UHGV virus genome: UHGV-0129253
Source of the DNA: a virus
DNA: 64,000 nt
Direction: 5' to 3' (one strand)
The position numbers and the translations under genes were made by a program. The notes beneath the pieces were generated by a model, which saw only the letters and a list, made by a program, of their open reading frames with translations, had not been told where the DNA came from and searched no databases. Shown here in pieces: positions 3,871 to 63,725 of the stretch (positions are counted from its first letter, which is position 1; each line of letters starts with the position of its first letter).

Positions 3871-4164
3871 ATGTCTATTTTTAACCCAACATACCCTCAA
3901 TACTGCAACATCAGTGTCTTGCGAATTAAGATAGTGTGAATAGATTTTTCATGCAAGTGCATAAGCCTGTGGATAACTCAGGAAGGAAAAAGTGACTTCT
4001 GCGCACTTTAGACAGGACAAGGCGTTCGAAAAAGTCAATGGGAAGAAAAAATTTGTTAAAAATAACGTTTGTTTGAATTGTATATATTTATGCCTTTCAA
4101 TAGTTAGCATCTTATTAACATCTTTTTTAAGAGATAGAGTTCAAAAATATATAGCTTCAATATA

Positions 4165-4184
4165 TACTGTATGTGTATACAGTA
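4165..4184. promoter_or_regulatory. LexA (SOS) box TACTGTATGTGTATACAGTA
   Basis: Perfect CTGT-N8-ACAG, 17 nt upstream of the UmuD'-like start. Confidence 0.7.
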
Positions 4185-4200: not shown

Positions 4201-4590
4201 ATGGGCTTCCCTTCTCCTGCGGCGGATTATGCTGAGAGCCGTATTTCTCTTGATCAGCAGATAATTAGACATCCTTCAGCGACCTACTTCATGAGGGCAG
4301 CTGATAGTCATCATCGTGAGGGAATATTACAGGGTGCATTGCTGGTGGTCGATTCCTCACTTACCCCGGTTGATGGTTCTCTGCTTGTATGCGCTCTGGA
4401 TGGGGAATATCGCGTAAAAAGATACCGGAAGTACCCACGTCAGCATCTGGAGGATTTAAGAACCGGTAAGAAGGAAGCATTGCCAAAGGATGACGATGGA
4501 TGCACGGGCAGCAATGCCGTGTTTGGTGTGATCACTCACATTATCAACGACGCAAGAAGTGGCGAGTTTGATGATTGTCCTGTGATGTAG
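4201..4590 (+). CDS. UmuD'-like SOS mutagenesis protein (S24 LexA-like peptidase fold), HumD-like pre-processed form
   Basis: MGFPSPAADY...HPSATYF... begins at the UmuD Cys24-Gly25 cleavage position; LexA box upstream; no umuC partner in window. Confidence 0.75.
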   Translation: MGFPSPAADYAESRISLDQQIIRHPSATYFMRAADSHHREGILQGALLVVDSSLTPVDGSLLVCALDGEYRVKRYRKYPRQHLEDLRTGKKEALPKDDDGCTGSNAVFGVITHIINDARSGEFDDCPVM

Positions 4591-4627: not shown

Positions 4628-5728
4628 TCACACTGCGCGGAATGCGATTTCGCCAGGTATTACTTCACCTTGCCAATACATTTGGGCAGCAACGCGATCT
4701 GCGAGGTCACGATAAATAGCCGTAAATTCACTATCTGGACGACTAATAACGGTTGGTGTTCCGTTATCCAGATCTTCACGAAGAGAGATATGAAGTGGCA
4801 TTTGGCCTAACAACTGCGTGTTGTATTTCTCGGCCAGTTTCTGTGCGCCACCGGTGCCAAAAATTGGCTCGTGATGACCGCAGTTACTGCAAATATGCAC
4901 ACTCATGTTTTCGACGATACCCAGTACCGGCACTTCGACTTTTTCGAACATCACAATGCCTTTCTTCGCATCGATCAGCGCGATGTCTTGCGGCGTAGTT
5001 ACCACAACCGCACCAGTTACAGGAATGTTCTGCGCCAGCGTCAACTGAATATCACCAGTGCCCGGCGGCATATCGAGAACGAGATAGTCCAGATCAGGCC
5101 ATATAGTTTCCTGCAACATCTGCATCAGCGCCTTGCTGGCCATCGGTCCACGCCACACCATTGCATTGTCGTCGGTGACCAGATAACCAATAGAGTTGGT
5201 TGCCAGGCCATGAGACATGATAGGTGCCATGTGAGTACCGTCAGGTGAGGTTGGACGTTGGTTTTCCGCGCCCAGCATGGTTGGAATTGATGGACCATAG
5301 ATATCGGCATCCAAAATACCAACTTTCGCACCTTCAGCAGCCAACGCCAGTGCCAGGTTTACCGCCGTGGAGGATTTACCCACGCCGCCCTTGCCTGAGC
5401 TGACGGCGATAATGTTCTTAACGCCATTAATGCCTGGTTGGTTTTTGACGCGCTTAAGCGTGGCAATGTTGTACGACAGCTTCCAGTCAATAGCCTTTGC
5501 GCCAGTGATACGGAGCAGATCACCACTACATTGCTCTTTCAGGTCTTCAAAAGGCTTATTCCACACGAAAGGCATGATTAGTTCGACATGCAGTGTGTCA
5601 TCCATCAACGCAACATGGTGTAACGCTTTAAGCGTAGTCAGGTTGTGTTTCAGGGTTGGGTGCTGAAAATTAGCCAGCGTACCGGCTACCATTGCTCTCA
5701 GGGCATCCGGCGATTTGGACTCGCTCAT
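4628..5728 (-). CDS. mrp: Iron-sulfur cluster carrier ATPase Mrp/ApbC
   Basis: 366 aa, P-loop SSGKGGVGKS, near-full-length match to enterobacterial Mrp; divergent from metG as in E. coli. Confidence 0.9.
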   Translation of the reverse strand: MSESKSPDALRAMVAGTLANFQHPTLKHNLTTLKALHHVALMDDTLHVELIMPFVWNKPFEDLKEQCSGDLLRITGAKAIDWKLSYNIATLKRVKNQPGINGVKNIIAVSSGKGGVGKSSTAVNLALALAAEGAKVGILDADIYGPSIPTMLGAENQRPTSPDGTHMAPIMSHGLATNSIGYLVTDDNAMVWRGPMASKALMQMLQETIWPDLDYLVLDMPPGTGDIQLTLAQNIPVTGAVVVTTPQDIALIDAKKGIVMFEKVEVPVLGIVENMSVHICSNCGHHEPIFGTGGAQKLAEKYNTQLLGQMPLHISLREDLDNGTPTVISRPDSEFTAIYRDLADRVAAQMYWQGEVIPGEIAFRAV

Positions 5729-5885
5729 CCCGTCTCCTTTATTTTAATTTGCGCAATTGTCGCCTTGTAGTGTACTCCAGCTACGGCATTTAATCATTTA
5801 TGAGAAATGCTGTTATCACATGGCAGACATAAGGCCATTTTGTTACTATCAAGCCCCTTTTCACTACAAAGAAGTAATGCCTACT

Positions 5886-7919
5886 ATGACCCAAGTCGCG
5901 AAGAAAATTCTGGTGACGTGCGCGCTGCCGTACGCTAACGGCTCAATCCACCTCGGCCATATGCTGGAGCACATCCAGGCTGATGTCTGGGTTCGTTACC
6001 AGCGAATGCGCGGCCACGAGGTTAATTTCATCTGTGCCGACGATGCCCACGGTACGCCGATCATGCTGAAAGCGCAGCAGCTTGGTATCACACCGGAGCA
6101 GATGATTGGCGAAATGAGTCAGGAACACCAGACTGATTTCGCAGGCTTTAACATCAGCTATGACAACTATCACTCGACGCACAGCGAAGAGAACCGCCAG
6201 CTGTCTGAGCTTATCTATACTCGCCTGAAAGAGAACGGTTTTATTAAAAACCGCACTATCTCTCAGTTGTACGATCCGGAAAAAGGCATGTTCCTGCCGG
6301 ACCGTTTTGTAAAAGGCACCTGCCCGAAATGTAAAGCGCCAGATCAATACGGCGATAACTGTGAAGTCTGCGGCGCAACATATAGCCCGACTGAATTGAT
6401 CGAGCCGAAATCGGTGGTTTCTGGCGCTACCCCGGTAATGCGTGATTCTGAACACTTCTTCTTTGATCTACCCTCTTTCAGCGAAATGTTGCAGGCATGG
6501 ACCCGCAGCGGCGCGTTGCAGGAGCAGGTGGCGAACAAAATGCAGGAATGGTTTGAATCCGGCCTGCAACAGTGGGATATCTCCCGCGATGCGCCTTACT
6601 TCGGTTTTGAAATTCCGAACGCGCCGGGCAAATATTTCTACGTCTGGCTGGACGCGCCGATTGGCTACATGGGTTCCTTCAAGAATCTGTGCGACAAGCG
6701 CGGCGATACCACCAGCTTCGATGAATACTGGAAGAAAGACTCCACCGCCGAGCTGTACCACTTCATCGGTAAAGATATTGTTTACTTCCACAGCCTGTTC
6801 TGGCCTGCCATGCTGGAAGGCAGCAACTTCCGCAAGCCGACCAACCTGTTTGTTCACGGCTATGTGACGGTGAACGGCGCGAAGATGTCCAAGTCTCGCG
6901 GCACCTTTATTAAAGCCAGCACCTGGCTGAATCATTTTGACGCTGACAGCCTGCGTTACTACTACACTGCGAAACTCTCTTCGCGCATTGATGATATCGA
7001 TCTCAACCTGGAGGATTTCGTTCAGCGCGTGAATGCCGATATCGTGAACAAAGTGGTTAACCTGGCCTCTCGTAATGCAGGCTTTATCAACAAGCGTTTT
7101 GACGGCGTGCTGGCAGGCGAACTGGCTGACCCGCAACTGTACAAAACCTTTACTGATGCCGCTGAAGTGATTGGCGAAGCATGGGAAAGCCGCGAATTTG
7201 GTAAAGCTATCCGTGAAATCATGGCACTGGCTGACCTGGCTAACCGCTATGTCGATGAACAGGCTCCGTGGGTGGTGGCGAAGCAGGAAGGTCGCGATGC
7301 CGATCTGCAGGCGATTTGCTCTATGGGCATTAACCTGTTCCGCGTGCTGATGACTTACCTGAAACCGGTACTGCCGAAACTGACTGAACGTGCAGAAGCA
7401 TTCCTGAATACAGAACTGACCTGGGATGGTATCCAGCAACCGCTGCTGGGCCATAAAGTGAATCCGTTCAAGGCACTGTATAACCGTATCGATATGAAAC
7501 AGGTGGAAGCACTGGTGGAAGCATCCAAAGAAGAAGTGAAAGCCACAGCCGCACCGGTAACTGGCCCACTGGCTGACGACCCGATTCAGGAAACCATCAC
7601 CTTTGACGACTTCGCCAAAGTTGACCTGCGTGTGGCGCTGATTGAAAACGCGGAGTTTGTTGAAGGTTCTGACAAACTGTTGCGCCTGACGCTGGATCTC
7701 GGCGGTGAAAAACGCAATGTCTTCTCAGGCATCCGTTCTGCTTATCCAGACCCACAGGCACTGATTGGTCGTCACACCATTATGGTGGCTAACCTGGCTC
7801 CGCGTAAAATGCGCTTCGGTATCTCCGAAGGCATGGTGATGGCTGCTGGCCCCGGCGGGAAAGATATCTTCCTGTTAAGCCCGGATGTCGGTGCTAAACC
7901 TGGCCACCAGGTTAAGTAA
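5886..7919 (+). CDS. metG: Methionine--tRNA ligase
   Basis: 677 aa from ATG 5886 ([25 protein letters not shown]...); HIGH-type and KMSKS motifs; the ORF track's 5757 start is an upstream artefact. Confidence 0.95.
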
Positions 7920-9229: not shown

Positions 9230-10020
9230 CCATGCCTGGAATCACATCCTTAAATATCAATAGGTTACAGTTGTTTATACCAATAAGAAAACAACTGAAT
9301 AACAGATCAACGAAACATCAACGCTTTCACCCGATTTGGTCTAAAAAATTGACGTTTTCACACATCACTGCTTATACCCGTAATTCTACGCAGCAGACAG
9401 CGCCACAGCGTCCAATTTTCACCACAGACGACCCAACACACTACCAACAAAAACACACGCTCAAAATCGCTCCCGTTGCGTTACACAACCATATAAACAA
9501 CTTATTTTCAGGTATAACGAAACAACTAAATAACACATATGCCATTTCCAAAAACAACCAACCTCTTTATGGCAGGCTACCGAAAAGACCCACCTCTTCT
9601 CCCCAGGCTACCGGACAACCAACCTAACTTTCACAGGCAATCCGAAAACATTCATACGCGCGATACCCACGACACGCCATTACCCAAACAGCGAAGAAAC
9701 ACCAGAATCACTGAACCCCCAACGAAGCCTGTAACCGCAAGGCTTCTCTCAATCCCAAAAGACACGAAACAGAACAATCACGGGAAACGCCATTACCCAA
9801 CACACGAATAACTACAAAAGCCTTTCACACACTCCAGACAAACAACTCAAACACAATAACGAAAGGAATCGCCCACCTGCCATTACTCCATACACGGAGA
9901 AGAACAATCACCAAAACGACGAGAACACCCCATAGAAGAACCACCGCAAAACGAACGAAACCACATACACCGACAGAGAAAACAACACACCCAATTCACC
10001 AACAGAAATAGTCGCCGTAT
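9230..10020. other. G-depleted A+C-rich noncoding tract (~0.8 kb)
   Basis: Plus strand ~12-15% G by hand count on three 60-nt lines; ORFs in it translate to low-complexity sequence. Confidence 0.5.
9551..9653 (+). repeat. Direct repeats of CAGGCTACCG(A/G)A(A/C)AA..CC(A/C)ACCT (3-4 copies)
   Basis: Same family recurs at 13565-13648. Confidence 0.4.
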
Positions 10021-10219
10021 AGAACGTTCTGGAAGGAGTGAGCATTAACGCCTATAGAGAGGTTGAAACAGATAAAACACGAAGAAAACACAACATGTAT
10101 AGCGAACAAGACAGGTATGTATAAGTGGGGAGGGAAGGAGGGGTGTTGCCTCCTTTTTCGTATTTATTCAACTCCTGATTTTATCCCCCGTAACACCCCT
10201 ACGGTCAGCCTTCGGTCCA

Positions 10220-10360
10220 TACAGGGAAAAGGCTGCATCCTGCTACAGAAACGGCTGGGTTGCCTTCGGGGAACGGCTGGGGATTTTCAGGGAAACGGTC
10301 GAGTTGCCTGTGTGGATTTCGGGAAAAGGCTCGATGCCGGTTCAGGAACGGTGGCGTACC
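10220..10360 (+). repeat. Iteron array: six copies of (C)(A/G)GGAAA(A/C)GGCTG at ~21-24 bp spacing, with a DnaA-box-like TGTGGATTT
   Basis: Copies at 10222, 10246, 10268, 10288, 10320, 10343. Confidence 0.5.
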
Positions 10361-10690
10361 GGTATAGCGTGAGGGAGAGTTGCGGCTACCCACCTGTAAT
10401 GTGCGGGAAGAAGAGAGGCGCTCACGTGCAGGCGAACTTACTTACCGCAGGATTCCCTCTGAATGCCCAACTACAGCGTAATTGTGCCAGACAGCCAACG
10501 GGTCACAATCGATTTCAGTAGGTTTTCGGGGAGATGATTATTCTGCCCACCAGCCACCTTCGGCCACTAAATCAGAATAATGTAAAAAGTGTACTCGGTA
10601 CTGAACCTGAAAACTCACTGCCAAAACCACATTCACCGGAATAAAATCCTTTTCCGCCTTTGTCTTATTGCGATAATAACACCAACAAGT

Positions 10691-10704
10691 AAACAACATG
10701 TTTA
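10691..10704. promoter_or_regulatory. Early-type palindrome AAACAACATGTTTA after a GATAAT box
   Basis: Module CGATAAT(A/T)ACACCAACAAG-AAACAA..TGTTT shared with 13180 and 13670. Confidence 0.35.
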
Positions 10705-10735
10705 GACGTTATATAAACGAAGTGAGGATGAAGAG

Positions 10736-10954
10736 ATGATTAAGATGCCTGTGACGGTTGAGGTGTGGGGCGTGGATTCCCTGGCTGAGTGTCTGGATGC
10801 AGTGGGGCCGGAGTTGTACCGCAAGTTGTGGTCGTTCGTCCCGGCAGAAGGGGAATCGCCCAAAGGGAAGGATATCTGGCACCTGCTGAGTGAAGATGAA
10901 AAGCGAGAGCTGGTGGACGCGGTACACAGCGAGTTCCCGGGCGACGAAGATTAA
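10736..10954 (+). CDS. Small acidic hypothetical protein
   Basis: 72 aa; GTGAGGATG upstream; terminator downstream. Confidence 0.5.
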   Translation: MIKMPVTVEVWGVDSLAECLDAVGPELYRKLWSFVPAEGESPKGKDIWHLLSEDEKRELVDAVHSEFPGDED

Positions 10955-10961
10955 GAGTGAG

Positions 10962-10983
10962 GCCACCAGCACGGTGGCTTTTG
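10962..10983 (+). terminator. Terminator hairpin GCCACCAGCACGGTGGC + TTTTG
   Basis: One of a family of AAGGCCACCA...TGGTGGCCTT hairpins (also 11434, 13053, 13525). Confidence 0.5.
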
Positions 10984-11066
10984 TCGCTATTAACCTCCGG
11001 GGCAGCGCAGCACCGTAACGATATACTTTGTGGCCGTTTTCTTACTGGTATTGTTTACGCAATTCA

Positions 11067-11083
11067 GAAAACAACATGTTTAA
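11067..11083. promoter_or_regulatory. Early-type palindrome GAAAACAACATGTTTAA
   Basis: Downstream of a TATTGT -10-like box; module shared with 11520. Confidence 0.35.
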
Positions 11084-11093
11084 GGATTGCGTT

Positions 11094-11423
11094 ATGTTTG
11101 CAAATATCGACATCAACCAAATTAAGAAATTAACTCAAAAAGAGTTTGATCAGTTTTATGAGTTAGAAGGTTGGTCTTCCACTCTGATCAATTCGCGGTG
11201 GGTGCTTGAGCTGATGACTCGTGATGACGCACCTGCTTTGATGATTTGCGACATGGGTGAAGATGCTGACTTTATGGATATGAGCGAATTTTGTGTGGAC
11301 ACATACAACCGCAGCCAGAAGTACTACTTCACATGCGATAGCGAAAATGACGTGATTTCTAAGGTCTATCTTCACCTCGTCCAGCATTGGGACGTTCAGG
11401 AGTTTCTTGAAGTATTCGAGTAA
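11094..11423 (+). CDS. Hypothetical protein
   Basis: ATG 11094 with AAGGA 7 nt upstream; the longer track start lacks an RBS. Confidence 0.45.
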   Translation: MFANIDINQIKKLTQKEFDQFYELEGWSSTLINSRWVLELMTRDDAPALMICDMGEDADFMDMSEFCVDTYNRSQKYYFTCDSENDVISKVYLHLVQHWDVQEFLEVFE

Positions 11424-11550
11424 CCCCAACCAAAGCCAGCAATGCTGGCTTAATTTCTCTATAGCCGCAGGGAAGAACCTGCATATAGCTCATGCACCTG
11501 ATCAATATGCTTTGTAGCCGTTTTCTTACTGGTATTATTTACGCCATTGA

Positions 11551-11567
11551 GAAAACAAGTTGTTTAC
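11551..11567. promoter_or_regulatory. Early-type palindrome GAAAACAAGTTGTTTAC
   Basis: Follows a TATTAT -10-like box. Confidence 0.35.
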
Positions 11568-11576
11568 GGAGTTGTG

Positions 11577-11888
11577 ATGAAAAAATCATTGGTTCTTGGT
11601 CTGGACAAAGACCAGAAGAGAAAAGAGAAGCCTGCACTGGTTGCTCAATTAACTTTGCTAGACATCGTTGCCAATGGAACCTCTATTCGTCTGTTCCGTG
11701 AAACAGCGGTGTCTTTCGATAAAAACACCTTTACTCGTTATGTAATGAATGTTCGTCGCCAGCGTGGAAAAGGCTGGATGGCATTTCAAAGAATGTGGCC
11801 GGAACATCAGCTCGAACTGGCTTTGATGGAAGTTAACCGCGTGGCCCAGCAAGAAATTCAGAGAGCATCAGTGATGGCAATAGCCTGA
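11577..11888 (+). CDS. Hypothetical protein
   Basis: ATG 11577 with GGAG upstream. Confidence 0.5.
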   Translation: MKKSLVLGLDKDQKRKEKPALVAQLTLLDIVANGTSIRLFRETAVSFDKNTFTRYVMNVRRQRGKGWMAFQRMWPEHQLELALMEVNRVAQQEIQRASVMAIA

Positions 11889-11922
11889 TAATGTGCAAGT
11901 GGTAATTAGTCGACAGTACGAC

Positions 11923-11951
11923 AGCCCCGCCATCCTTACGGGGCTTTTTTG
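11923..11951 (+). terminator. Rho-independent terminator (AGCCCCG...CGGGGCT + TTTTTT)
   Basis: Hairpin plus T6. Confidence 0.65.
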
Positions 11952-12014
11952 TATTGTAAGTACATACTTACGATCATAGAATAGAAAAATAACCAATACA
12001 CTACGGAGAGTGAA

Positions 12015-12410
12015 ATGACCATTAAACGCGAAAAACTGACAGTTGATGTTTACTATGCCTCTGAAACCGCCGAAGGTAAGAATGTGGCAAAAATCACCGT
12101 TGTTACGTACAACACCGAAACTGGCGCCGAAGTACAGGCCAGTACGATCGTGCGTAAAGGTGATGCCTCCGACGGCGAGTACGCGATTCAATACCAGTCT
12201 ATTTTCGATGCAACTGACCCGCTGCTGCTGAAAATCGAGAACTACTTCCGCCAGGTTGATGAAGAGGTGTTTGAACCAATGATGAATATGGTTGACACCG
12301 TATTCGCCTCCAACCTGAATACCAACACTGCCTGGATTGGTCAGTACGGCCTGCGCATTACCTCTGGCATTCCTGCCGACACCTTAATCCCTGAAAGCGT
12401 ATTCGCTTAA
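12015..12410 (+). CDS. Hypothetical protein
   Basis: 131-aa ORF with GGAGAG RBS. Confidence 0.55.
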   Translation: MTIKREKLTVDVYYASETAEGKNVAKITVVTYNTETGAEVQASTIVRKGDASDGEYAIQYQSIFDATDPLLLKIENYFRQVDEEVFEPMMNMVDTVFASNLNTNTAWIGQYGLRITSGIPADTLIPESVFA

Positions 12411-12422
12411 TCCTCTTTAAAT

Positions 12423-12446
12423 GGCGCGTAAACCGCGCCATTTTCT
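12423..12446 (+). terminator. Rho-independent terminator (TGGCGCG-TAAA-CCGCGCCA + TTTTCTT)
   Basis: Hairpin plus T-run. Confidence 0.65.
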
Positions 12447-12456
12447 TATGCCCGAT

Positions 12457-12500
12457 AACAATTTGTTTTCTGCCTTATCTGATTTGTGAAAATGATTTCA
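12457..12500 (+). promoter_or_regulatory. Early-type promoter module (AACAATTTGTTTTCTGCC...TGTGAAAAT)
   Basis: Third copy of the module seen at 1082 and 8004. Confidence 0.35.
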
Positions 12501-12527
12501 CTGAAGCAACTTAATAAGGAAACCATC

Positions 12528-12902
12528 ATGGGACTTGATATCTATATCGAGACACAGCCTAAAAACGATCTGAATAACGAGGCATCCAGAAAGCAGGTTG
12601 CTTACTTCCGTAAGTTCAATGCGCTCGTTGGGTGGATGGAGCGCAACGTAGGTGAAGTCGAAAATTGTGAGCTTTTAGAATTAACGATGAATGACATTTG
12701 TTTTCTGAAGGCTCATTTGATGCACATAAACGAAAGCAATTGCGAAGAGTACTTGCCTACCCGGGAAGGTTTTTTCTTCGGCAGTCAGGAGTACGATGAA
12801 GGTTACTGGCATGACGTGGACAAGCTGAAAAAACTTGTGGAAGACCTGATCAGGAACCACGACTTTCACAATAACAGACTGACCTTCTGCGCCTGGTGGT
12901 AA
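12528..12902 (+). CDS. Hypothetical protein
   Basis: ATG 12528 with AAGGA upstream. Confidence 0.5.
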   Translation: MGLDIYIETQPKNDLNNEASRKQVAYFRKFNALVGWMERNVGEVENCELLELTMNDICFLKAHLMHINESNCEEYLPTREGFFFGSQEYDEGYWHDVDKLKKLVEDLIRNHDFHNNRLTFCAWW

Positions 12903-12904
12903 AT

Positions 12905-13036
12905 ATGGGCGATTTCAAGAAACGCCTGAAGGAAAGAGCCGAGATGGTCAGAAAGCAAAACGCCTCTTCTGTCATCAGATACGCAAGGCAGTTTAGTCGC
13001 AACAACAAATCAGTTGAGGAAAAGATCCTTAGCGTA
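12905..13036 (+). CDS. Small ORF (43 aa, basic), translationally coupled
   Basis: ATG 3 nt after upstream stop; below the track threshold; frame checked codon by codon. Confidence 0.3.
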
Positions 13037-13203
13037 ATCGGGCGATAATTATTAAGGCCACCAGCATTGGTGGTCTTAAATGACTTTTAATAACCGAAGG
13101 TTAGTTTGAAACCTGGCTATCAACTTCCAGAACCTTTCTTGTGTATTCAGCCTGTATTAACTTCTTTTATGCCTTATCTACACTGCGATAATTACACCAA
13201 CAA

Positions 13204-13220
13204 GAAAACAACATGTTTAC
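13204..13220. promoter_or_regulatory. Early-type palindrome GAAAACAACATGTTTAC after GATAAT
   Basis: Module shared with 10670 and 13670. Confidence 0.35.
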
Positions 13221-13237
13221 GCAGTGAGGATATGCTC

Positions 13238-13519
13238 ATGACTGATTTCACCATTACCCCTAAAGCACAAAATGTATTCCTTGAATCATGGCTGGACTTG
13301 CCGGAAACAGAACAGCAAGAAATGGATCATGTGGATTATGACGAGCAGGTAAGCACGCGATTCTTCCACTTTGAGGGATGCGTTTACGACATTGCCGACT
13401 TCATGCGAGATGACCGCTTCCCTGAATGGCACGCAAGCTATCCACTAAACGCCTTTGCCATGCTGATGATCCGTGTGGGTGATTCAGGGGATACCATCGA
13501 CATCGGTCTGCTCCACTAA
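13238..13519 (+). CDS. Hypothetical protein
   Basis: ATG 13238 with GTGAGGAT ~9 nt upstream. Confidence 0.45.
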   Translation: MTDFTITPKAQNVFLESWLDLPETEQQEMDHVDYDEQVSTRFFHFEGCVYDIADFMRDDRFPEWHASYPLNAFAMLMIRVGDSGDTIDIGLLH

Positions 13520-13564
13520 AGACTAAGGCCACCAATGCTGGTGGCCTTAAATGACCATCCTGTT

Positions 13565-13648
13565 TCCCGCAGGCTAAAAACACCAACCTCTTACCTCCAG
13601 GCAACCGACAAACCCACCTGTTCCCGTCCGGCTACCGCAACTTTCCAC
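13565..13648 (+). repeat. Direct repeats CAGGC(T/A)A..CGACAAACCCACCT (3 copies), second locus of the 9551 family
   Basis: Read directly. Confidence 0.4.
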
Positions 13649-13688
13649 TTTGACGCCTTATTCGTACAACGATAATTAACACCAACAA

Positions 13689-13703
13689 GAAAACAATTTG
13701 TTA
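13689..13703. promoter_or_regulatory. Early-type palindrome GAAAACAATTTGTTA after GATAAT
   Basis: ~20 nt upstream of ATG 13724. Confidence 0.35.
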
Positions 13704-13723
13704 TTTACGATAAGGAATTAATC

Positions 13724-14206
13724 ATGAATTTTATCGCTACTGTAAACGCACCCGCACATGGCAATATCGCTGTAACGTTCTCTGACATTGAAAAACGAGT
13801 ACTTGGTGCATGGCGCGACAATGAGACGGTAGAACTGTCAGCACAAGAAAAATGCATTATTGCACGCGACATCATTGGCAATCGTCGTTACTCGCGGGTA
13901 TTTGAGAAAGCGTATGTGGTAAATTCTGGGTTCGGAACGTTCGTCTTTCCGGTGCGCTCCGGGCGATTCTGCCAGTCCAAGCTGATTGAGTTCGCTACGC
14001 AGATTTCTGTCTGGATTAAAACTCAATCGTCGTTCAAATTTTCCGACGATGAAGCAGTATCGCAGGGGATGCGGATCGCCAACAATGCAATTAAATGCAA
14101 AAACATTACGTATACCGCTGGCGTTGACACATGGAAACTGTTTTGCGCTAACTTTATGCTGAATGTATACGCAAGCAACCGCATCCACATCCTTGATGGC
14201 GTGTAA
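13724..14206 (+). CDS. Hypothetical protein
   Basis: 160-aa ORF, AAGGA RBS. Confidence 0.55.
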   Translation: MNFIATVNAPAHGNIAVTFSDIEKRVLGAWRDNETVELSAQEKCIIARDIIGNRRYSRVFEKAYVVNSGFGTFVFPVRSGRFCQSKLIEFATQISVWIKTQSSFKFSDDEAVSQGMRIANNAIKCKNITYTAGVDTWKLFCANFMLNVYASNRIHILDGV

Positions 14207-14208
14207 CT

Positions 14209-14237
14209 GAGAAGAGGGCCAGAAACGGCCCTTTCTC
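14209..14237 (+). terminator. Long hairpin GAGAAGAGGGCC-AGAAAC-GGCCCTTTCTC after ORF 13724-14206
   Basis: ~11-bp stem; loop carries the iteron core GAAACGGCC. Confidence 0.4.
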
Positions 14238-14259
14238 TATAGCCACCAGCTGCCGCAGG

Positions 14260-14340
14260 GAAATTTTCAGAAACGGCGAGGAACGCATTCATGAGCCGAC
14301 GGGAAACGGCCAGGATTTTTTCGGGAAACGGCTGCATTCG
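14260..14340 (+). repeat. Second iteron array: 3 copies of (C)GGGAAACGGC
   Basis: Copies at 14268, 14300, 14322; same core as 10220-10360. Confidence 0.45.
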
Positions 14341-14742
14341 CCTTTATGTAGAAAAAAACATCGGGAAGCTGGTGGAATCCAACCAGCGGTTGTCGGACAG
14401 GCGAGCGGGGAAAATTATGATGACTTTCGTCGCCTGAGACATCCAGATTTCTTTCGTAGCGTAATCACATACGTGATTAAGTGGTGTGATTATGTGAAAA
14501 ATCACGCGCACATAATACGCGAGCGGATACGGAACAAAACAAAATGCCGATCCGCGCCGACAATTAAACGCGGATCATAAAGCAAGACTAAAAGCCAATG
14601 ATTAACCACACACCATAGCGCAATATAACGCGTTTTAAGCGCGTTAATGTGTTGAGTAATGGGTATGTACTGGTAAGGATATAAAAGCTCGTCTGTGGCG
14701 TTATTTTGGCGCTTATTTTATGTTGTTGGAGTGAGTCAAAGA

Positions 14743-14772
14743 CAATAAAAAACGCGCCATCATTGGCGCGTT
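14743..14772 (-). terminator. Minus-strand terminator (AACGCGCCATCATTGGCGCGTT, T-run on minus strand)
   Basis: Perfect 8-bp stem; A-run on plus strand. Confidence 0.55.
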
Positions 14773-14793
14773 ATGGTGGAAGTATTAGAAACG

Positions 14794-14816
14794 AAAAAAG
14801 CGCCCATAGTGGGCGC
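14794..14816 (-). terminator. Minus-strand terminator GCGCCCATAGTGGGCGC, copy 1
   Basis: Overlaps the stop of gene 14823-15053. Confidence 0.55.
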
Positions 14817-14822
14817 TTGATT

Positions 14823-15053
14823 TTATTTGTGCAAACTGATTTTAAATCCCATTTCTACAAACGCTTTTAGCATTAAAAATATATCAGCGTCATTCACGTC
14901 TGCTTTTTTCCGCTCCTGGTCGTTCAATAAGTCAATTTTTCGCGTTGTTTCATCGATAAACTCGACTGAGCGCCCAGCGTAACCAGCGATCCCAGCGATG
15001 CGATTAACAAAATAATCATTGCGCACGTTAACGCCAGCGATAAGAATAAACAT
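14823..15053 (-). CDS. Small hypothetical protein, paralog A (76 aa)
   Basis: Paralogous to 15096-15323; AAGGAG RBS. Confidence 0.55.
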   Translation of the reverse strand: MFILIAGVNVRNDYFVNRIAGIAGYAGRSVEFIDETTRKIDLLNDQERKKADVNDADIFLMLKAFVEMGFKISLHK

Positions 15054-15066
15054 GATTAAGCTCCTT

Positions 15067-15087
15067 AAAAGCGCCCATAGTGGGCGC
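15067..15087 (-). terminator. Intergenic hairpin GCGCCCATAGTGGGCGC, copy 2
   Basis: Identical stem-loop between the paralogs. Confidence 0.5.
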
Positions 15088-15095
15088 TATTGTTT

Positions 15096-15323
15096 TTATT
15101 TTTCTAAGTGAATATTAAAGCCAGCGTTTAAAAATTCTTGAAGCATTAAAGTTACATCAGCTTCATGTATTCCTGCGCGCGCTCTATGTTCTACGTCATT
15201 GATGTTTATTTTAAACGTTGTTTCGTCAACCACTTCAGAACTTAGAGCATACCCAGCTAAACCAGCAATATCATAAACAAGAGTATGATTGTTGATATTT
15301 ACGCCAGAGATGAAAATAACCAT
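15096..15323 (-). CDS. Small hypothetical protein, paralog B (75 aa)
   Basis: Tandem duplicate of 14823-15053. Confidence 0.55.
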   Translation of the reverse strand: MVIFISGVNINNHTLVYDIAGLAGYALSSEVVDETTFKININDVEHRARAGIHEADVTLMLQEFLNAGFNIHLEK

Positions 15324-15337
15324 GATTAAGCTCCTTT

Positions 15338-15357
15338 AAAGCGCCCATAGTGGGCGC
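15338..15357 (-). terminator. Intergenic hairpin GCGCCCATAGTGGGCGC, copy 3
   Basis: Identical stem-loop. Confidence 0.5.
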
Positions 15358-15370
15358 AAGATTCCATTAA

Positions 15371-16021
15371 TTACGCTTTAAAAGCATCAGCCAGATAGTT
15401 ATAGAAATCATTTTTAACGAAGCGATATTGCTGAGTGCCAGCTTTCGCGCTCCCAGCTCCTTTGACTTTTTCAACAAGTCCGAGACGTTCGCAAAGATTG
15501 ATCAACTGGTTGGCTTGAGTATAGCCAGCGTCCAATTTAATCTCGCACGCTTTTTTGGCTTCATTCATTAAATCGAAAACAGCGCCATTCGTGAACGTGT
15601 CGATCTCGTCGTTAATCATATCGATTAAAGCGAATACACGAGATCCAGACATATCAGCGACGGAATAAGTGCATTTGCCAGATTTAATTGATTTAACCAG
15701 ATAAACCAGTTTTTCCAGAGAATAACTATTAGTCATTGCATCACGGAAAAAAACTTCTGGCGTTTGTTTGCTTGCTTTGATCGCATAGTAGAAAACAGAG
15801 CACAATTTTTCGTCTTCTACAGCGTTTACAACGTTGTTGATGAAGTAAGCAAGTTTAGTGGTTGCAGCTTGCATATTTGCTTTGTCTGCTTTTGTGTGCG
15901 TACCATTTTTATAATGTTCGTTATATGTTTGAGTTGCCAGATCTGCTTTTTCGCGCAGCTCGTCGGATACAATGGCAGCAGCTTCAACGATGGATTTTTT
16001 AGAAATGATAATGTTAGCCAT
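15371..16021 (-). CDS. Hypothetical protein (216 aa)
   Basis: ORF with AT-rich promoter region upstream (16022-16300). Confidence 0.55.
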   Translation of the reverse strand: MANIIISKKSIVEAAAIVSDELREKADLATQTYNEHYKNGTHTKADKANMQAATTKLAYFINNVVNAVEDEKLCSVFYYAIKASKQTPEVFFRDAMTNSYSLEKLVYLVKSIKSGKCTYSVADMSGSRVFALIDMINDEIDTFTNGAVFDLMNEAKKACEIKLDAGYTQANQLINLCERLGLVEKVKGAGSAKAGTQQYRFVKNDFYNYLADAFKA

Positions 16022-16614: not shown

Positions 16615-17139
16615 TCAAAAAGGCAAAATTCGTTCAACCCAATCGAACAAAACAACTATTTTTCTACCGTTCTCGACACGTAGTGTAACCTGACAAGCAT
16701 CTGCGCCTGCTGACACCCCCTCAATTTCACGGCCATCCGCCATGTACACCCTTATAGATTTGTTTGCTTTGTAGGCTTGGTTGCAAATTGCAAAAAAATC
16801 GCGGCGTGATGGCCGATTATCGACATAATCAGGGTGAACTGTTAGTCGACCTTTGAAATCGTGAGCGATACTGTCAACCACACCTGATTCAATTGTACTA
16901 ATGCGTTCAAGTGGGAGCCTTATACGATTTTCTTTGTCAAAAGGGGCTGGGCAAAGGTCAACTTTGTTACGAGATGGCATGAGGCCATAAACGTACATGC
17001 AAAACGCCTGGCCATCTTCGAGAGTGACCCTTACAGGAATTTGTTCTCTGCGCCAGAACATCAGTAGTTTTTCAACGTTAGTGTAATCTCGCGGCCAGAG
17101 TTCAGCTTGGATACCGTAGGTAATATCTTTGGTTGTCAT
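16615..17139 (-). CDS. Hypothetical protein; start uncertain (alternative ATG at 17217 would overlap the upstream gene by 74 nt)
   Basis: ORF 16615-17217; internal ATG at 17139 lies 4 nt after the lipoprotein stop. Confidence 0.4.
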   Translation of the reverse strand: MTTKDITYGIQAELWPRDYTNVEKLLMFWRREQIPVRVTLEDGQAFCMYVYGLMPSRNKVDLCPAPFDKENRIRLPLERISTIESGVVDSIAHDFKGRLTVHPDYVDNRPSRRDFFAICNQAYKANKSIRVYMADGREIEGVSAGADACQVTLRVENGRKIVVLFDWVERILPF

Positions 17140-17634: not shown

Positions 17635-17913
17635 TTATTTTAATCTGCTTAATAGCGTTTCGAGATCTTCCTTTGTCATATTAGAGTTCTCATAGATACG
17701 CATGATTTTCTCACGAGTCTTAGCGGAAGCCCCGACAGAAGATATAACCTTGTCAAAGTCGGCCATTGTCAATTGTTCCAGAATGGTATTTATGACTTCA
17801 GCCTTAGACATTTTGATATTTTTTTCTTTTAGTTTCACTTGAAACTTTCCAAGTTTGTCATTGGCCTTATCAGACAATGCTACCTGACAGTAAGTTGTTT
17901 TCTTTTCACTCAT
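17635..17913 (-). CDS. Hypothetical protein (92 aa)
   Basis: ORF immediately downstream of the helicase. Confidence 0.5.
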   Translation of the reverse strand: MSEKKTTYCQVALSDKANDKLGKFQVKLKEKNIKMSKAEVINTILEQLTMADFDKVISSVGASAKTREKIMRIYENSNMTKEDLETLLSRLK

Positions 17914-19520: not shown

Positions 19521-19540
19521 ATAAGTAAGTGATTACTTAG
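19521..19540. promoter_or_regulatory. Late-type motif ATAAGTAAGTGATTACTTAG in divergent promoter region
   Basis: First member of the (G)ATA(A/G)GTAAGTA...TACTTA family. Confidence 0.4.
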
Positions 19541-19557
19541 TGGATTGTAGCAATAAA

Positions 19558-20238
19558 ATGGATGTAAAAATCACGATTTTGCAGGTTGATGTTGCCAACC
19601 TTCGCCCGAATACCTGGAACACCAATTCGGTTGGTGCGCAGAATTTTGAAAAACTGAAAGGTTCTATCGAAAAATTGGGCTTTTTTAAGCCAATTTTGGC
19701 TCGTGAACTTGAAGATGGATTTTTTGAAATCCTCGGCGGTGAACATCGCTGGCGTGCTGCTATTGAGCAAGGAATTTCAACGGTTCCGGTGCTTTCTGTG
19801 GGCAAAATTAGCGATGTCGTAGCTAAACAGATGTCACTGGTGGACAACGAGCGATACGGTGAAGACGACCAAATCGCATTGCAACGCTTCATTGAAGAAA
19901 TTCAGTCAGAACTTGACTATCAACTGTCTGAAATCGCCCCGTATGACGACGAAATCTCGATGGTTTTAGCAAAAGAGGCGGCAATCGACCTTGAAGCACT
20001 GGAGGCATTGTCTCGTGGTAGTGATGAGCCTGTCGATACCGACAAACGAGAGAAAACCGAACGTGTGGGTGCGGAACATCAGACCATGCGCTTCAAAGTA
20101 ACTTTCGATGCGTCAGATCGTGTTGCAGAAACCATAAAAAACATCATCAAAGAGCAGGCTATTAACACCGGTAATGAAATGGAGAACGCTGGTGAGGCTC
20201 TGGTGTGGCTGGTCGACTACTACAAGGAGCGTATGTAA
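19558..20238 (+). CDS. ParB/Srx-fold (ParB N-terminal domain) protein 1
   Basis: GxxRxxA motif (EILGGEHRWRAA); start ATG 19558 (track gives GTG 19540). Confidence 0.6.
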   Translation: MDVKITILQVDVANLRPNTWNTNSVGAQNFEKLKGSIEKLGFFKPILARELEDGFFEILGGEHRWRAAIEQGISTVPVLSVGKISDVVAKQMSLVDNERYGEDDQIALQRFIEEIQSELDYQLSEIAPYDDEISMVLAKEAAIDLEALEALSRGSDEPVDTDKREKTERVGAEHQTMRFKVTFDASDRVAETIKNIIKEQAINTGNEMENAGEALVWLVDYYKERM

Positions 20239-20906
20239 TGACCAAAAAGTTTGAAATCGTATATCGCGACCCGGCAGATCTTATTCCCTATGAGATGAAT
20301 GCCAAAAAGCATGATGAACAGCAGATCCGAGATCTGGCCGCAGCCATTAAAAAGCGCGGATTTGACCAGCCAATTACGGTCGATAAGAACGACGTAATTA
20401 TTACTGGCCACGGCCGCCGTGAGGCTGCAATTTTTGCTGGACTTGAGCGCGTACCGGTTATTGTTCGTGATGATCTGAGTGATGACGAGGTACGTGCAAA
20501 GCGTCTTGAAGATAACCGACTTGCCAGCATTGATTACGATGCAATTAAGCTACAGAAAGAGCTTGAGTCGCTTGTTCTGGACGATATCGAGGTTTTCGGC
20601 TTTGAAGAGCGTGAGTTGAATGTTCTCGTTGGCAGTATGACAGAAGAAATGGACACCGACTCGCTAGTTATCGATCTTGGCGAAGAAACTAAACGACAGA
20701 AGGATGAACACACCGAGATCAGTCGTGAAGTTGCAGCGGAAGAAGTACGTGTTGTCGACGTATTGGGCTTTAAAACGCTCCCTGCTGGCTCTGCCATTGT
20801 TGTTGGTGATTTGCTTGCCCATATGGAAGAAATGACGGGAGAAAGCGGGGTAGACGCATTTGTGGCATATGCGGAGAAGATCTCTTCCGGGGAGATGGCT
20901 GCATGA
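20238..20906 (+). CDS. ParB/Srx-fold (ParB N-terminal domain) protein 2
   Basis: ITGHGRREAA motif; start overlaps upstream stop. Confidence 0.6.
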   Translation: MTKKFEIVYRDPADLIPYEMNAKKHDEQQIRDLAAAIKKRGFDQPITVDKNDVIITGHGRREAAIFAGLERVPVIVRDDLSDDEVRAKRLEDNRLASIDYDAIKLQKELESLVLDDIEVFGFEERELNVLVGSMTEEMDTDSLVIDLGEETKRQKDEHTEISREVAAEEVRVVDVLGFKTLPAGSAIVVGDLLAHMEEMTGESGVDAFVAYAEKISSGEMAA

Positions 20907-22926: not shown

Positions 22927-23559
22927 ATGACGGTCGAAAAAGACGAGGTAAAAACTCGCCTGACACCAGCGGAGTGGGCCGAAGCTGAAGCCAAATGGAC
23001 GTCAGGCGAATATACACTCTCAAAGCTGGAGGAAGAGTACGGCATTCGTCGTGAAACACTCTCCAGACATTTCAAAAAGCGAGGATTAGAGAAAGGCGCG
23101 GACTCTGTTGGGAAGATGGTTCGTGAGTCTCTTAAATCTGACGCAGAGCTTCGCGCTAAAGCCCGTGCGGAAAAGATAGAAGAACGTCGTACACGTTATG
23201 ACGGCTGGGCGTATGCGTTGGGGCAGATGGTGATGGTCGAAGTCACTACGGCCAAACGTGAGGGTAAGCCTTTAGGGGCGATTGAGGATTCTCTCAAGAG
23301 CTTACAGAGAGCCAGTAATACCCTTGCAAAATGCTTTGAAGTTTCGTCCAAAGCATTGGGCATGGATCATGCGGAAAATGACGAGGAAGAAATTCCGAAC
23401 CTGGTATTTGGTGAGCTTACGCCTTCCCAGGTGGCGAAATTACGTCAGGAAGACGACGAGCCTGAAATCATCGATGACGAATTGCTTGAGACGTTAGAAG
23501 AAGAAGCTCTAAGCGAATTTGATGCGACAGATGATGGAAGTGAAGGGGAGGACGAATAA
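22927..23559 (+). CDS. Putative terminase small subunit (N-terminal HTH, acidic C-terminus)
   Basis: Directly upstream of and overlapping TerL. Confidence 0.5.
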   Translation: MTVEKDEVKTRLTPAEWAEAEAKWTSGEYTLSKLEEEYGIRRETLSRHFKKRGLEKGADSVGKMVRESLKSDAELRAKARAEKIEERRTRYDGWAYALGQMVMVEVTTAKREGKPLGAIEDSLKSLQRASNTLAKCFEVSSKALGMDHAENDEEEIPNLVFGELTPSQVAKLRQEDDEPEIIDDELLETLEEEALSEFDATDDGSEGEDE

Positions 23560-63478: not shown

Positions 63479-63553
63479 GATGGTGTAGCTCAGCGGTAGA
63501 GCAGTTGGCTGTTAACCAACTGGTCGGTGGTTCGAATCCACCCACCATCGCCA
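63479..63553 (+). tRNA. tRNA-Asn (anticodon GUU)
   Basis: Hand-folded cloverleaf: acceptor GATGGTG/CACCATC, D-stem GCTC/GAGC, anticodon loop CTGTTAA, T-arm GGTGG-TTCGAAT-CCACC, encoded CCA; unlike the enterobacterial tRNA-Asn as I recall it. Confidence 0.8.
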
Positions 63554-63558
63554 ATTTA

Positions 63559-63645
63559 GGGGAGTTAGTCCGTAGGGGCAGCGGGGTAGACTGTAAATCT
63601 ACTGTCATTGCGACTCGGGTGGTTCGACTCCATCACTCCCCACCA
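63559..63645 (+). tRNA. tRNA-Tyr (anticodon GUA), type II with long variable arm; D-arm non-canonical
   Basis: Acceptor GGGGAGT/ACTCCCC, anticodon arm GTAGA-CTGTAAA-TCTAC, variable-arm hairpin GTC-ATTGC-GAC, T-arm GGTGG-TTCGACT-CCATC, encoded CCA. Confidence 0.6.
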
Positions 63646-63649
63646 AATT

Positions 63650-63725
63650 GCCGGTTTAGCTCAGTTGGTAGAGCGCCTGCCTTGTAAGCAGGATGTCAGC
63701 GGTTCGATCCCGTTAACCGGCACCA
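63650..63725 (+). tRNA. tRNA-Thr (anticodon UGU)
   Basis: Acceptor GCCGGTT/AACCGGC, D-stem GCTC/GAGC, anticodon arm CCTGC-CTTGTAA-GCAGG, T-loop TTCGATC, encoded CCA. Confidence 0.8.

What the first reader, a model, noticed from the sequence alone, without database searches (positions are those of the whole stretch)
14240..14750. Transcriptionally silent zone bounded by convergent terminators, with iterons and nested inverted repeats
Between the plus-strand terminator at 14209-14237 and minus-strand terminators at 14743-14816 lie three GGGAAACGGC iterons, inverted repeats built on AATCAC/GTGATT (AATCACATACGTGATT..GTGTGATTATGTGAAAAATCAC) and GATCCGCGC...GCGCGGATC. This architecture suits an origin, centromere or packaging site.
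Basis: partly seen in the sequence, partly recalled or inferred. Interest (0 to 1): 0.5.

Follow-up and report, generated by a model that had tools for sequence, protein, structure and literature searches.

The report
Conserved iteron array in phage-plasmid
A 616-base non-coding gap in an SSU5/pHCM2/pMT1-type phage-plasmid holds a short repeated DNA motif, kept almost unchanged across very distant relatives and duplicated 4 kb upstream, that most likely serves as a docking array for a still-unidentified DNA-binding protein.

Summary
The window is an E. coli SSU5-like phage-plasmid (96-98% identical to Cyrano/pLF82). There are two exact GGGAAACGGC plus two CAGAAACGGC, not three. The AATCAC and GATCCGCG inverted repeats are real but specific to this lineage. 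The conserved core is a + strand terminator (14209-14237), then same-orientation repeats with core GGGAAACGGC (14220-14332), then about 400 bp of patchily conserved spacer, then two tandem minus-strand terminators (14751-14818). This layout persists in pMT1, SSU5 and Klebsiella, Citrobacter, Enterobacter and Cronobacter elements. It also persists in relatives whose flanking protein is only 31-33% identical. A paralogous array with a 22-bp period lies at 10225-10353, and no other site in the 64 kb scores comparably. I found no RNA structure, covariation, Rfam match or convincing promoter. It is not the plasmid RepA origin: that origin lies about 37 kb away and uses different iterons. There is no DnaA-box enrichment or long AT-rich tract here, and the terminase genes are 8 kb away. 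Best reading (about 0.4): a transcription-insulated protein-binding array that forms one half of a bipartite cis element. Its role, whether phage-mode replication control, pairing or partition, is inferred and not shown. The binding protein is unidentified.

The parts
14209..14237 (+). Intrinsic terminator T1 of the + strand small-gene operon. Its loop and 3' stem contain the first motif copy, CAGAAACGGC (14220-14229).
   Evidence: Fold dG -17.7, z -3.9. Compensatory stem changes in relatives.
14243..14250 (-). Chi site (CCACCAGC on the + strand), facing inward towards the array.
   Evidence: Present in most but not all lineages.
14252..14332 (+). Array 2. It opens with the conserved CCGCAGGGAAA, followed by units CAGAAACGGC (14268), GGGAAACGGC (14301) and GGGAAACGGC (14323). 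Anchor spacings are 48, 33 and 22 bp, and all units share one orientation.
   Evidence: This is the most conserved block of the intergenic region (0.83-0.91 pairwise identity). It is retained in relatives whose flanking protein is 31-33% identical.
14341..14360 (.). Short A/T-rich patch (CCTTTATGTAGAAAAAAACA) directly after the last unit. It is partly conserved.
   Evidence: An equivalent TATAG(A/C)G patch follows array 1.
14368..14375 (+). Chi site (GCTGGTGG), facing inward. Relatives have a Chi about 45 bp further right instead.
14462..14521 (.). Lineage-specific cluster of four AATCAC/GTGATT hexamers plus a small hairpin. It overlaps a conserved block, ATAATACGCGAGCG, which reads as a -10-like TATTAT on the minus strand.
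14548..14577 (-). GATCCGCG...CGCGGATC hairpin followed by a T-run (terminator-like on the minus strand). Found only in the E. coli-type allele.
14696..14719 (+). TGGCG(C)TTATTT direct repeat, two copies. Moderately conserved.
14751..14772 (-). Second (inner) minus-strand intrinsic terminator. The stem is invariant and the loop varies among relatives.
14798..14818 (-). First minus-strand terminator, of the phrog_1585 gene (potentially bidirectional). The sequence GAAACGAAAAAAGCGCCCATAGTGGGCGCT is invariant in 11 elements, and the hairpin is repeated at 15070-15088.
10225..10353 (+). Partner array 1. It has six units with the same core (GGRAAMGGY), anchor spacings of 22, 22, 22, 31 and 22 bp, and the same orientation. 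It lies about 70 bp downstream of the + strand terminator at 10132-10158.
   Evidence: Present in all relatives examined except pMT1.

Best explanation
The conserved left third of the region (14252-14332, with a further copy inside the terminator at 14220) is a tandem array of binding sites for a sequence-specific DNA-binding protein. The core is GGGAAACGGC, often extended to TTCGGGAAACGGCTGG. It is one half of a bipartite element whose other half is the 22-bp-period array at 10225-10353. Together the two arrays bracket a cassette of seven small early genes (10736-14206).

The proposed mechanism has three steps.
1. Protomers bind head-to-tail along each array.
2. The terminators on both sides keep RNA polymerase from sweeping the complex off.
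3. The two loaded arrays can pair by looping or handcuffing.

I think the most likely use is control or enhancement of phage-mode (non-RepA) replication, in the manner of P4 ori/crr or P1 incA. Partition and topological or transcriptional insulation of the cassette are close seconds.

Shown here: the repeats, their clustering, single orientation, conservation above the neutral level, restriction to two loci, flanking terminators, and the absence of RNA or coding signals. Inferred: protein binding, pairing of the arrays, and any role in replication. I put about 0.6 on 'DNA-level protein-binding array' and about 0.25-0.3 on a replication-related role. The 0.4 given below is for the statement as a whole.
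For: - Clustering and orientation.
- A position weight matrix built from the 10 units finds no comparable site elsewhere in the 64 kb.
- The array is 72-76% identical between lineages in which third-codon positions of the adjacent gene are only 47-48% identical.
- The conservation peak lies at 14297-14341.
- Motif, terminator and synteny persist in elements whose flanking protein is 31-33% identical. Those elements also have an array-1 equivalent.
- Both arrays lie just downstream of a + strand terminator, and array 2 is additionally closed by two tandem minus-strand terminators.
- There is no RNA structure (z -0.67 and +0.73) and no covariation (term +0.03).
- The arrays share only the core of about 10-14 nt, with no within-element concerted evolution. 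That fits a short protein recognition site better than RNA-RNA pairing.
- The element is found in 772 PLSDB plasmids and in 239 of 5426 complete E. coli genomes, always on plasmids.
Against: - No initiator-like gene, no DnaA-box enrichment and only a 19-bp A/T patch are present.
- Cumulative GC skew shows no origin or terminus signature at the locus.
- Spacings in the most distant relatives (37, 28, 34, 26 bp) are not multiples of a helical turn, so the phasing argument is weak.
- pMT1 is maintained without array 1, so the pair is not needed for plasmid maintenance.
- All units are in the sense orientation of the upstream operons, which an RNA-level function would also predict.
Confidence: 0.4

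Rival explanations
1. RNA-level element. Read-through or leader transcripts carry the repeated GGGAAAC motifs. A protein binds them, most plausibly the FljA-family tandem-Sm protein encoded 1.8 kb to the right. The arrays would then act as a 3'UTR or leader regulatory platform, or as a protein sponge in the manner of Csr/Rsm.
For: - All ten units lie on the sense strand of the upstream + strand operons.
- From my own knowledge, Salmonella FljA binds the fliC mRNA 5'UTR.
- The gene co-occurs with the arrays in all relatives examined, including non-flagellate Klebsiella hosts.
- The array is rich in GGA.
Against: - Both arrays lie downstream of intrinsic terminators, and no promoter is evident.
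- The RNA folds are no more stable than shuffled sequence, and there is no covariation.
- There is no CsrB/Rsm or other Rfam match even at E of 10 or below.
- The 12-mer shared with the E. coli fliC 5'UTR is at chance level: a second, unrelated 12-mer match occurs elsewhere in the window, with E 0.65. It is also confined to the E. coli lineage.
- No sRNA was called at the pMT1 homologue (PMC3770706).
Confidence: 0.15
2. Partition centromere. The arrays are dispersed centromere sites bound by one of the two ParB-N-domain proteins (19540-20906) or by a small DNA-binding protein. This would resemble the parC1/parC2 iteron arrays flanking par2 of pB171, or the dispersed centromeres of phage-plasmid N15.
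For: - The element is a low-copy plasmid (5.5 copies per chromosome for Cyrano, PMC9928086), and I saw no canonical ParA/ParM in the annotated E. coli relative.
- Two ParB_N proteins plus an ATPase are conserved 4.7 kb away.
- Same-orientation short repeats insulated from transcription are typical of parC-type centromeres (own knowledge).
Against: - The arrays are not adjacent to the ParB-like operon.
- The ATPase is ABC-like and not ParA-like.
- pMT1 carries a separate P1-type parAB yet keeps array 2 and the ParB-like genes.
- ParB proteins usually bind palindromes (own knowledge).
Confidence: 0.12
3. Regulatory or insulator array. A repressor or roadblock protein bound at both ends of the small-gene cassette loops it out or blocks read-through. 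This would isolate the early, probably anti-host, genes from neighbouring transcription.
For: - The arrays bracket the cassette exactly and each follows a terminator.
- The cassette proteins are small, mostly acidic and without known families.
- The layout is analogous to lambda OL-OR looping (own knowledge).
Against: - The cassette has its own distinct repeated palindromic motif, ACAACATGTTTA. It occurs three times exactly, each time upstream of a gene, and is conserved as AACAACTTGTTTAG in a distant relative. That motif looks like the real operator or promoter, and none lies in the finding region.
- Array 2 is not next to any promoter.
Confidence: 0.13
4. Packaging (pac/cos-type) recognition site for the small terminase subunit.
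For: - The reverse complement of the core, GCCGTTTCCC, shares CGTTTCC with the lambda cosB R sites. This is from my own memory and is a lead only.
- Chi sites flank the array and are 14-fold over-represented in the element.
Against: - TerL is of the T4/headful type, and the candidate terS/terL genes start 8 kb away (22927, 23559). There is no Nu1-like protein.
- Two arrays 4 kb apart are not expected for a pac site.
- No deposited linear phage record begins or ends here.
Confidence: 0.05
5. No present function: decaying duplicated terminator-proximal sequence carried along by linkage.
For: - The middle 400 bp is mosaic, with at least two alleles and several indels.
Against: - The core units are invariant across elements whose neighbouring gene has saturated synonymous sites.
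- They are retained at 31-33% flanking protein identity.
- The same motif is kept at a second locus in every functional relative examined.
Confidence: 0.08

Closest known systems
Satellite phage-plasmid P4 ori / crr (own knowledge: two clusters of type I iterons TGTTCACC about 4.5 kb apart, both bound by the alpha protein and both required in cis)
   Same: Two clusters of one short motif lie about 4 kb apart in a phage-plasmid, separate from ordinary plasmid-type control.
   Different: No alpha-like primase-helicase or any initiator is recognisable nearby. The motif is unrelated. Replication function is untested.
Iteron control loci of P1 (incC/incA) and RepFIB. The RepFIB type is present in this same element around repA.
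   Same: Direct repeats with a period of about 22 bp lie on both sides of a gene block, and handcuffing is a plausible mode of action.
   Different: This element's RepA iterons have a different sequence (aaCCACTATAGAGAG) and lie about 37 kb away. The bracketed genes include no Rep-like protein.
parC-type centromeres (R1 parC; pB171 parC1/parC2), from own knowledge
   Same: Arrays of short same-orientation repeats lie upstream and downstream of an operon. They are probably bound cooperatively by a small DNA-binding protein.
   Different: No ParM or ParA-type ATPase and no recognised ribbon-helix-helix ParR/ParG lies in the bracketed operon.
Lambda cosB R sites (own knowledge)
   Same: They share the heptamer CGTTTCC and occur as several copies near a bend or A-tract.
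   Different: There is no Nu1-type small terminase. The terminase is of the headful type and its genes are 8 kb away.
CsrB/RsmZ-type protein-sponge RNAs and the FljA-fliC 5'UTR interaction
   Same: GGA-rich repeated units, and a neighbouring Sm-like RNA-binding protein of the FljA family.
   Different: There is no promoter, no hairpin-presented motifs, no Rfam match and no covariation.

Membership tests
Iteron-type replication origin | Tandem direct repeats of about 17-22 bp period in one orientation | tested here: met
   Spacings are 48/33/22 bp in array 2 and 22/22/22/31/22 bp in array 1, all on the + strand.
Iteron-type replication origin | Cognate initiator (Rep) gene adjacent to or overlapping the repeats | tested here: not met
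   No Rep-like Pfam, NCBIfam or PHROG annotation among the flanking genes. The phrog_1641 model has no significant structural match.
Iteron-type replication origin | Adjacent AT-rich unwinding element and host-factor (DnaA) boxes | tested here: not met
   GC content is 0.48-0.50 across the array, with only a 19-bp A/T patch. DnaA-box-like matches occur at the background rate, and none in the region is perfect.
Iteron-type replication origin | Supports initiation or exerts incompatibility in vivo | not testable with these tools
   Needs marker-frequency analysis or an origin-cloning assay.
RepFIB (RepA) plasmid origin of this element | Repeats match the RepA iteron consensus and flank repA | tested here: not met
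   The RepA iterons are of the CCACTATAGAGAG type at positions 1-1545 and 107.4-108.2 kb of NZ_CP061531. The locus is at 70.6-71.2 kb.
Plasmid partition centromere (parC/parS) | Repeated binding sites next to a par operon that encodes the binding protein | tested here: inconclusive
   The repeats are present. The nearest ParB_N genes are 4.7 kb away and are paired with an ABC-like ATPase, not a ParA-like one.
Phage pac/cos site | Location in or beside the terminase genes; genome termini map there | tested here: not met
   The terS candidate is at 22927 and terL at 23559. No phage record ends at the locus. Physical termini are not testable here.
Rho-independent terminators | GC-rich hairpin followed by a T-run, with the stem kept by compensatory change | tested here: met
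   T1 stem variants are GGGCC/GGCCC, GGGGC/GCCCC and GGGAGA/TCTCCC. The T-run of T1 is short (TTTCTCT) in this window.
Any described structured RNA family (Rfam 15), including CsrB/Rsm sponges | Covariance-model match; conserved structure with covariation | tested here: not met
   No gathering-level hit. At E of 10 or below, only terminator-driven chance hits appear. The RNAalifold covariation term is +0.03.
Chi (RecBCD) sites | Exact GCTGGTGG | tested here: met
   Sites at 14243 (-) and 14368 (+). There are 21 in the window against 1.5 expected.

The most novel reading that the evidence does not exclude
The two GGGAAAC-repeat arrays are transcribed by regulated read-through of the preceding terminators. 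They then act as dedicated binding platforms or sponges for the element's own tandem-Sm (FljA-family) RNA-binding protein. That would be a Csr/Rsm-like protein-RNA titration circuit carried by a whole supergroup of phage-plasmids, including pMT1 of Y. pestis and pHCM2 of S. Typhi.

A DNA-level variant of similar novelty: the arrays, bound by the novel-fold phrog_1641 protein, form an ori/crr-like bipartite lytic origin beside the T-poor skewed tract at 9.2-10.0 kb.
Probability: 0.12. Interest if true: 0.75.

Novelty: new variant of a known kind. Interest (0 to 1): 0.45.

Why it matters
SSU5-like phage-plasmids are common in Enterobacteriaceae. This locus is in 772 PLSDB plasmids and in 4.4% of complete E. 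coli genomes. The group includes pMT1 of Yersinia pestis, pHCM2-type plasmids of Salmonella Typhi and resistance-carrying Klebsiella and Enterobacter elements. In the paper libraries I could search, I found no description of their lytic origin, centromere or packaging site.

A motif held invariant at two loci, while neighbouring proteins drift to about 31% identity, is a strong candidate for one of those missing cis elements. It also gives a precise target of 10 bp, present in 10 copies, for mutagenesis and binding assays.

Tried and rejected
1. Plasmid origin. Rejected: repA and different iterons lie elsewhere.
2. Small ORF 14291-14437 (48 aa). Rejected: neither the start codon nor the reading frame is conserved, and there is no family hit.
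3. Structured RNA or sRNA. No Rfam match, no covariation and no excess folding stability. The two Y. pestis pMT1 sRNAs, sR082 and sR083, map to other loci.
4. fliC 5'UTR mimicry as a target for the FljA-like protein. The shared 12-mer TGAGCCGACGGG is at chance level and lineage-specific.
5. Antisense pairing between the arrays, in the style of P4/P1/N15 immunity. There is no within-element concerted evolution, and the shared core is only 9-21 nt. The only conserved promoter-like element is a minus-strand TATTAT with 19-bp spacing, and it is absent from a distant relative.
6. A sigma-70 promoter after the last unit (TATGTA). Not conserved: Klebsiella and Cronobacter types have CATGGG or CAGGTA.
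8. GC-skew mapping of an origin or terminus. The cumulative skew is monotonic and uninformative.
9. Xer/dif-like, IHF, CRP, sigma-54, Ter and omega-heptad resemblances were judged by eye only and did not hold.
10. A 15-mer scan of IMG/VR returned SSU5-like contigs plus chance hits, with no new genomic context.
11. Literature searches for SSU5, pHCM2 or pMT1 origins, termini or iterons found nothing relevant. One 2026 preprint on phage-plasmid copy number could not be opened.

Full report
IDENTITY OF THE SEQUENCE. The window is an E. coli SSU5-like phage-plasmid. The stretch 13700-15400 is 95-97% identical to Escherichia phages Cyrano (pLF82), PhiR41_1 and CMS-2020a. The intergenic region is 98% identical to plasmid NZ_CP061531. 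The finding lies in a 616-bp intergenic gap (14207-14822) between two convergent genes with no known function. These are phrog_1641 (13724-14206, +) and a 76-aa phrog_1585 gene (14823-15053, -). No annotated record places a feature in the gap, apart from occasional 'hypothetical protein' calls.

OBSERVATION CHECK. The + strand hairpin at 14209-14237 is real (dG -17.7, z -3.9), although its T-run is short. The two minus-strand terminators at 14772-14751 and 14818-14798 are textbook examples. The repeats are a genuine cluster. Of the six GAAACGGC octamers in the 64 kb on both strands, four lie within 111 bp and all four are on the + strand. Only two copies are exactly GGGAAACGGC (14301, 14323). 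Two are CAGAAACGGC (14220, inside the terminator; 14268), and one GGGAAA (14258) is split from its second half. AATCAC occurs four times in 43 bp, and the GATCCGCG hairpin is stable.

COMPARATIVE PICTURE. The same gap, 580-680 bp long and in the same synteny, is present in 772 PLSDB plasmids and 12 phage records. These include Y. pestis pMT1, Salmonella phage SSU5 and elements from Klebsiella, Citrobacter, Enterobacter and Cronobacter. In an 11-sequence alignment, conservation peaks at 14297-14341 (0.83-0.91) and at the right-hand terminators (up to 1.00). It falls to 0.2-0.6 in the middle. Between the window and the pMT1/SSU5 types, the array is 72-76% identical. Third-codon positions of the adjacent gene are only 47-48% identical.

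Two more distant elements (OW968253, CP056499) have a phrog_1641 homologue that is only 31-33% identical. They still show the same order: gene, hairpin, CGCAGGGA..., (A)TTTCGGGAAACGGCTGG, about 450 bp of spacer, then AAAAAGCGCCCA-loop-TGGGCGCT terminators. The T1 stem changes in a compensatory way: GGGCC/GGCCC, GGGGC/GCCCC and GGGAGA/TCTCCC. By contrast, the AATCAC/GTGATT cluster and the GATCCGCG hairpin belong to one allele of the middle segment and are absent from most relatives. That middle segment is mosaic, with recombination breakpoints inside the gap.

A SECOND, PARALOGOUS ARRAY. The same core motif forms a six-unit array at 10225-10353, with anchor spacings of 22, 22, 22, 31 and 22 bp. 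It is also on the + strand and also lies just downstream of a + strand terminator (10132-10158). A weight matrix built from the ten units finds nothing comparable elsewhere in the window. Every relative examined except pMT1 has both arrays about 3.3-4 kb apart, including the distant ones. The arrays bracket seven small + strand genes (10736-14206). These genes have their own exact 12-mer, ACAACATGTTTA, three times upstream of genes. The arrays share only the core of about 10-14 nt. The longest common substring between the two arrays within one element is no longer than between different elements.

RNA OR DNA? I found no Rfam family, no excess folding stability and no covariation beyond the terminator. 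No conserved sigma-70 promoter reads into the array. The only conserved promoter-like block is a minus-strand TATTAT with poor spacing. No sRNA was called at the homologous pMT1 locus in a Y. pestis RNA-seq survey (PMC3770706). The 48-aa ORF is not conserved. The array sits between terminators on both sides, and the minus-strand side carries two tandem terminators. Together with the short shared core, this favours a DNA-level protein-binding site kept free of transcription. The sense orientation of every unit, and imperfect helical phasing in the distant relatives, keep an RNA-level role open.

WHICH DNA FUNCTION?
- Plasmid origin. It is elsewhere: repA with CCACTATAGAGAG-type iterons on both sides lies about 37 kb away.
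- Classical origin. It would need an initiator gene, DnaA boxes and an AT-rich tract, and none is found. Cumulative GC skew is uninformative.
- Packaging site. It is expected near terS/terL at 22.9-24.8 kb, and TerL is of the T4/headful type.
- Centromere. This is possible. Two ParB_N proteins with an ABC-like ATPase lie 4.7 kb away, but they are not adjacent to the arrays.
- Bipartite layout. It most resembles P4 ori/crr or iteron control loci such as P1 incA (own knowledge).

For these reasons I rank a phage-mode replication or control element first among the specific roles, at roughly 0.25-0.3.

CANDIDATE BINDING PROTEINS. The syntenic neighbour phrog_1641 gives a confident model (pLDDT 87.6) with no significant structural relative. 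Other conserved neighbours are a basic 103-aa protein inside the cassette, a basic 92-aa protein at 17635-17913, and the 216-aa phrog_1513 protein. The 92-aa protein corresponds to CYRAN_117, which is 12 times background in LF82 lysogens (PMC9928086). By my own reading its sequence may be ribbon-helix-helix-like, but this is untested. The FljA-family regulator at 16615-17139 models as two tandem Sm/Hfq-like domains, which supports the RNA-level rival. However, the 12-mer the array shares with the E. coli fliC 5'UTR is at chance level.

CHI SITES. GCTGGTGG occurs 21 times in the window against 1.5 expected, and 28 times in a reconstructed 108.9-kb element. An inward-facing pair (14243 -, 14368 +) brackets array 2. 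Relatives keep a Chi site on the right at a shifted position. Three further Chi sites lie in terminator hairpins of the cassette (10963, 13058, 13537). This could protect the region from RecBCD or promote recombination there. It does not identify the array's function.

VERDICT. This is a real, strongly conserved and apparently undescribed cis element. It consists of a terminator-insulated array of short direct repeats, paired with a paralogous array 4 kb upstream. It is most likely a protein-binding DNA site (about 0.6). The best guess for its role is control or enhancement of phage-mode replication or array pairing, and the whole statement carries about 0.4. Partition, cassette insulation and an RNA-protein platform are the live rivals.

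Noticed in passing
window 10225-10353 (with 10132-10158): Six-unit, 22-bp-period array of the same GGRAAMGGY core, about 70 bp downstream of a + strand terminator. It is the paralogous partner of the array under study. It is present in all relatives examined except pMT1.
   Followed up: yes
window about 9230-10020: A tract of about 800 bp with extreme strand asymmetry: A+C-rich and T- and G-poor on the + strand, with AT skew up to +0.60 and GC skew down to -0.46. It lies just upstream of array 1. Distant relatives instead have an A+G-rich, T-poor tract at the same place. RefSeq annotates no gene in 9538-11094.
   Followed up: partly
whole window, e.g. 10547, 10963, 13058, 13537, 14243, 14368: Chi (GCTGGTGG) is about 14-fold over-represented (21 observed, 1.5 expected). 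From 22.6 kb rightwards, 12 of 13 sites are on the + strand. Several sites in 10.5-14.4 kb lie in intergenic terminator hairpins, arranged as inward-facing (-,+) pairs.
   Followed up: partly
window 10693, 11071, 13208 (near-copies at 10090 and 22873): The exact 12-mer ACAACATGTTTA, with palindromic core AACATGTT, occurs three times, each time shortly upstream of a small gene. A distant relative has AACAACTTGTTTAG before its first cassette gene. It is probably the operator or promoter motif of the early cassette.
   Followed up: partly
[not shown]
   Followed up: partly
[not shown]
   Followed up: partly
window 4165-4184 and 3935-3976: A near-consensus LexA box, TACTGTATGTGTATACAGTA, lies 17 bp upstream of an S24-peptidase ORF (4201-4590). 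A cluster of three DnaA-box-like sites, one of them a perfect TTATCCACA, lies 200 bp further upstream. These may relate to SOS induction or to an alternative origin.
   Followed up: no
window 14785-14818 and 15070-15088: The 30-nt sequence GAAACGAAAAAAGCGCCCATAGTGGGCGCT, loop included, is invariant in all 11 aligned elements. The hairpin recurs after the paralogous phrog_1585 gene. The upstream GAAACG resembles the iteron core.
   Followed up: partly
window 4628-7919: A divergent apbC(mrp)/metG pair, arranged as on the E. coli chromosome, looks like a captured host segment. Three tRNA genes (Asn, Tyr, Thr) lie at 63479-63725.
   Followed up: no
window 14355-14520 compared with L006/L010: The middle of the gap exists in at least two alleles. 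E. coli plasmids pYLPI6a and pLR-46_1 share the window's left part but carry the Klebsiella/pMT1-type middle, so recombination breakpoints fall inside the intergenic region.
   Followed up: partly
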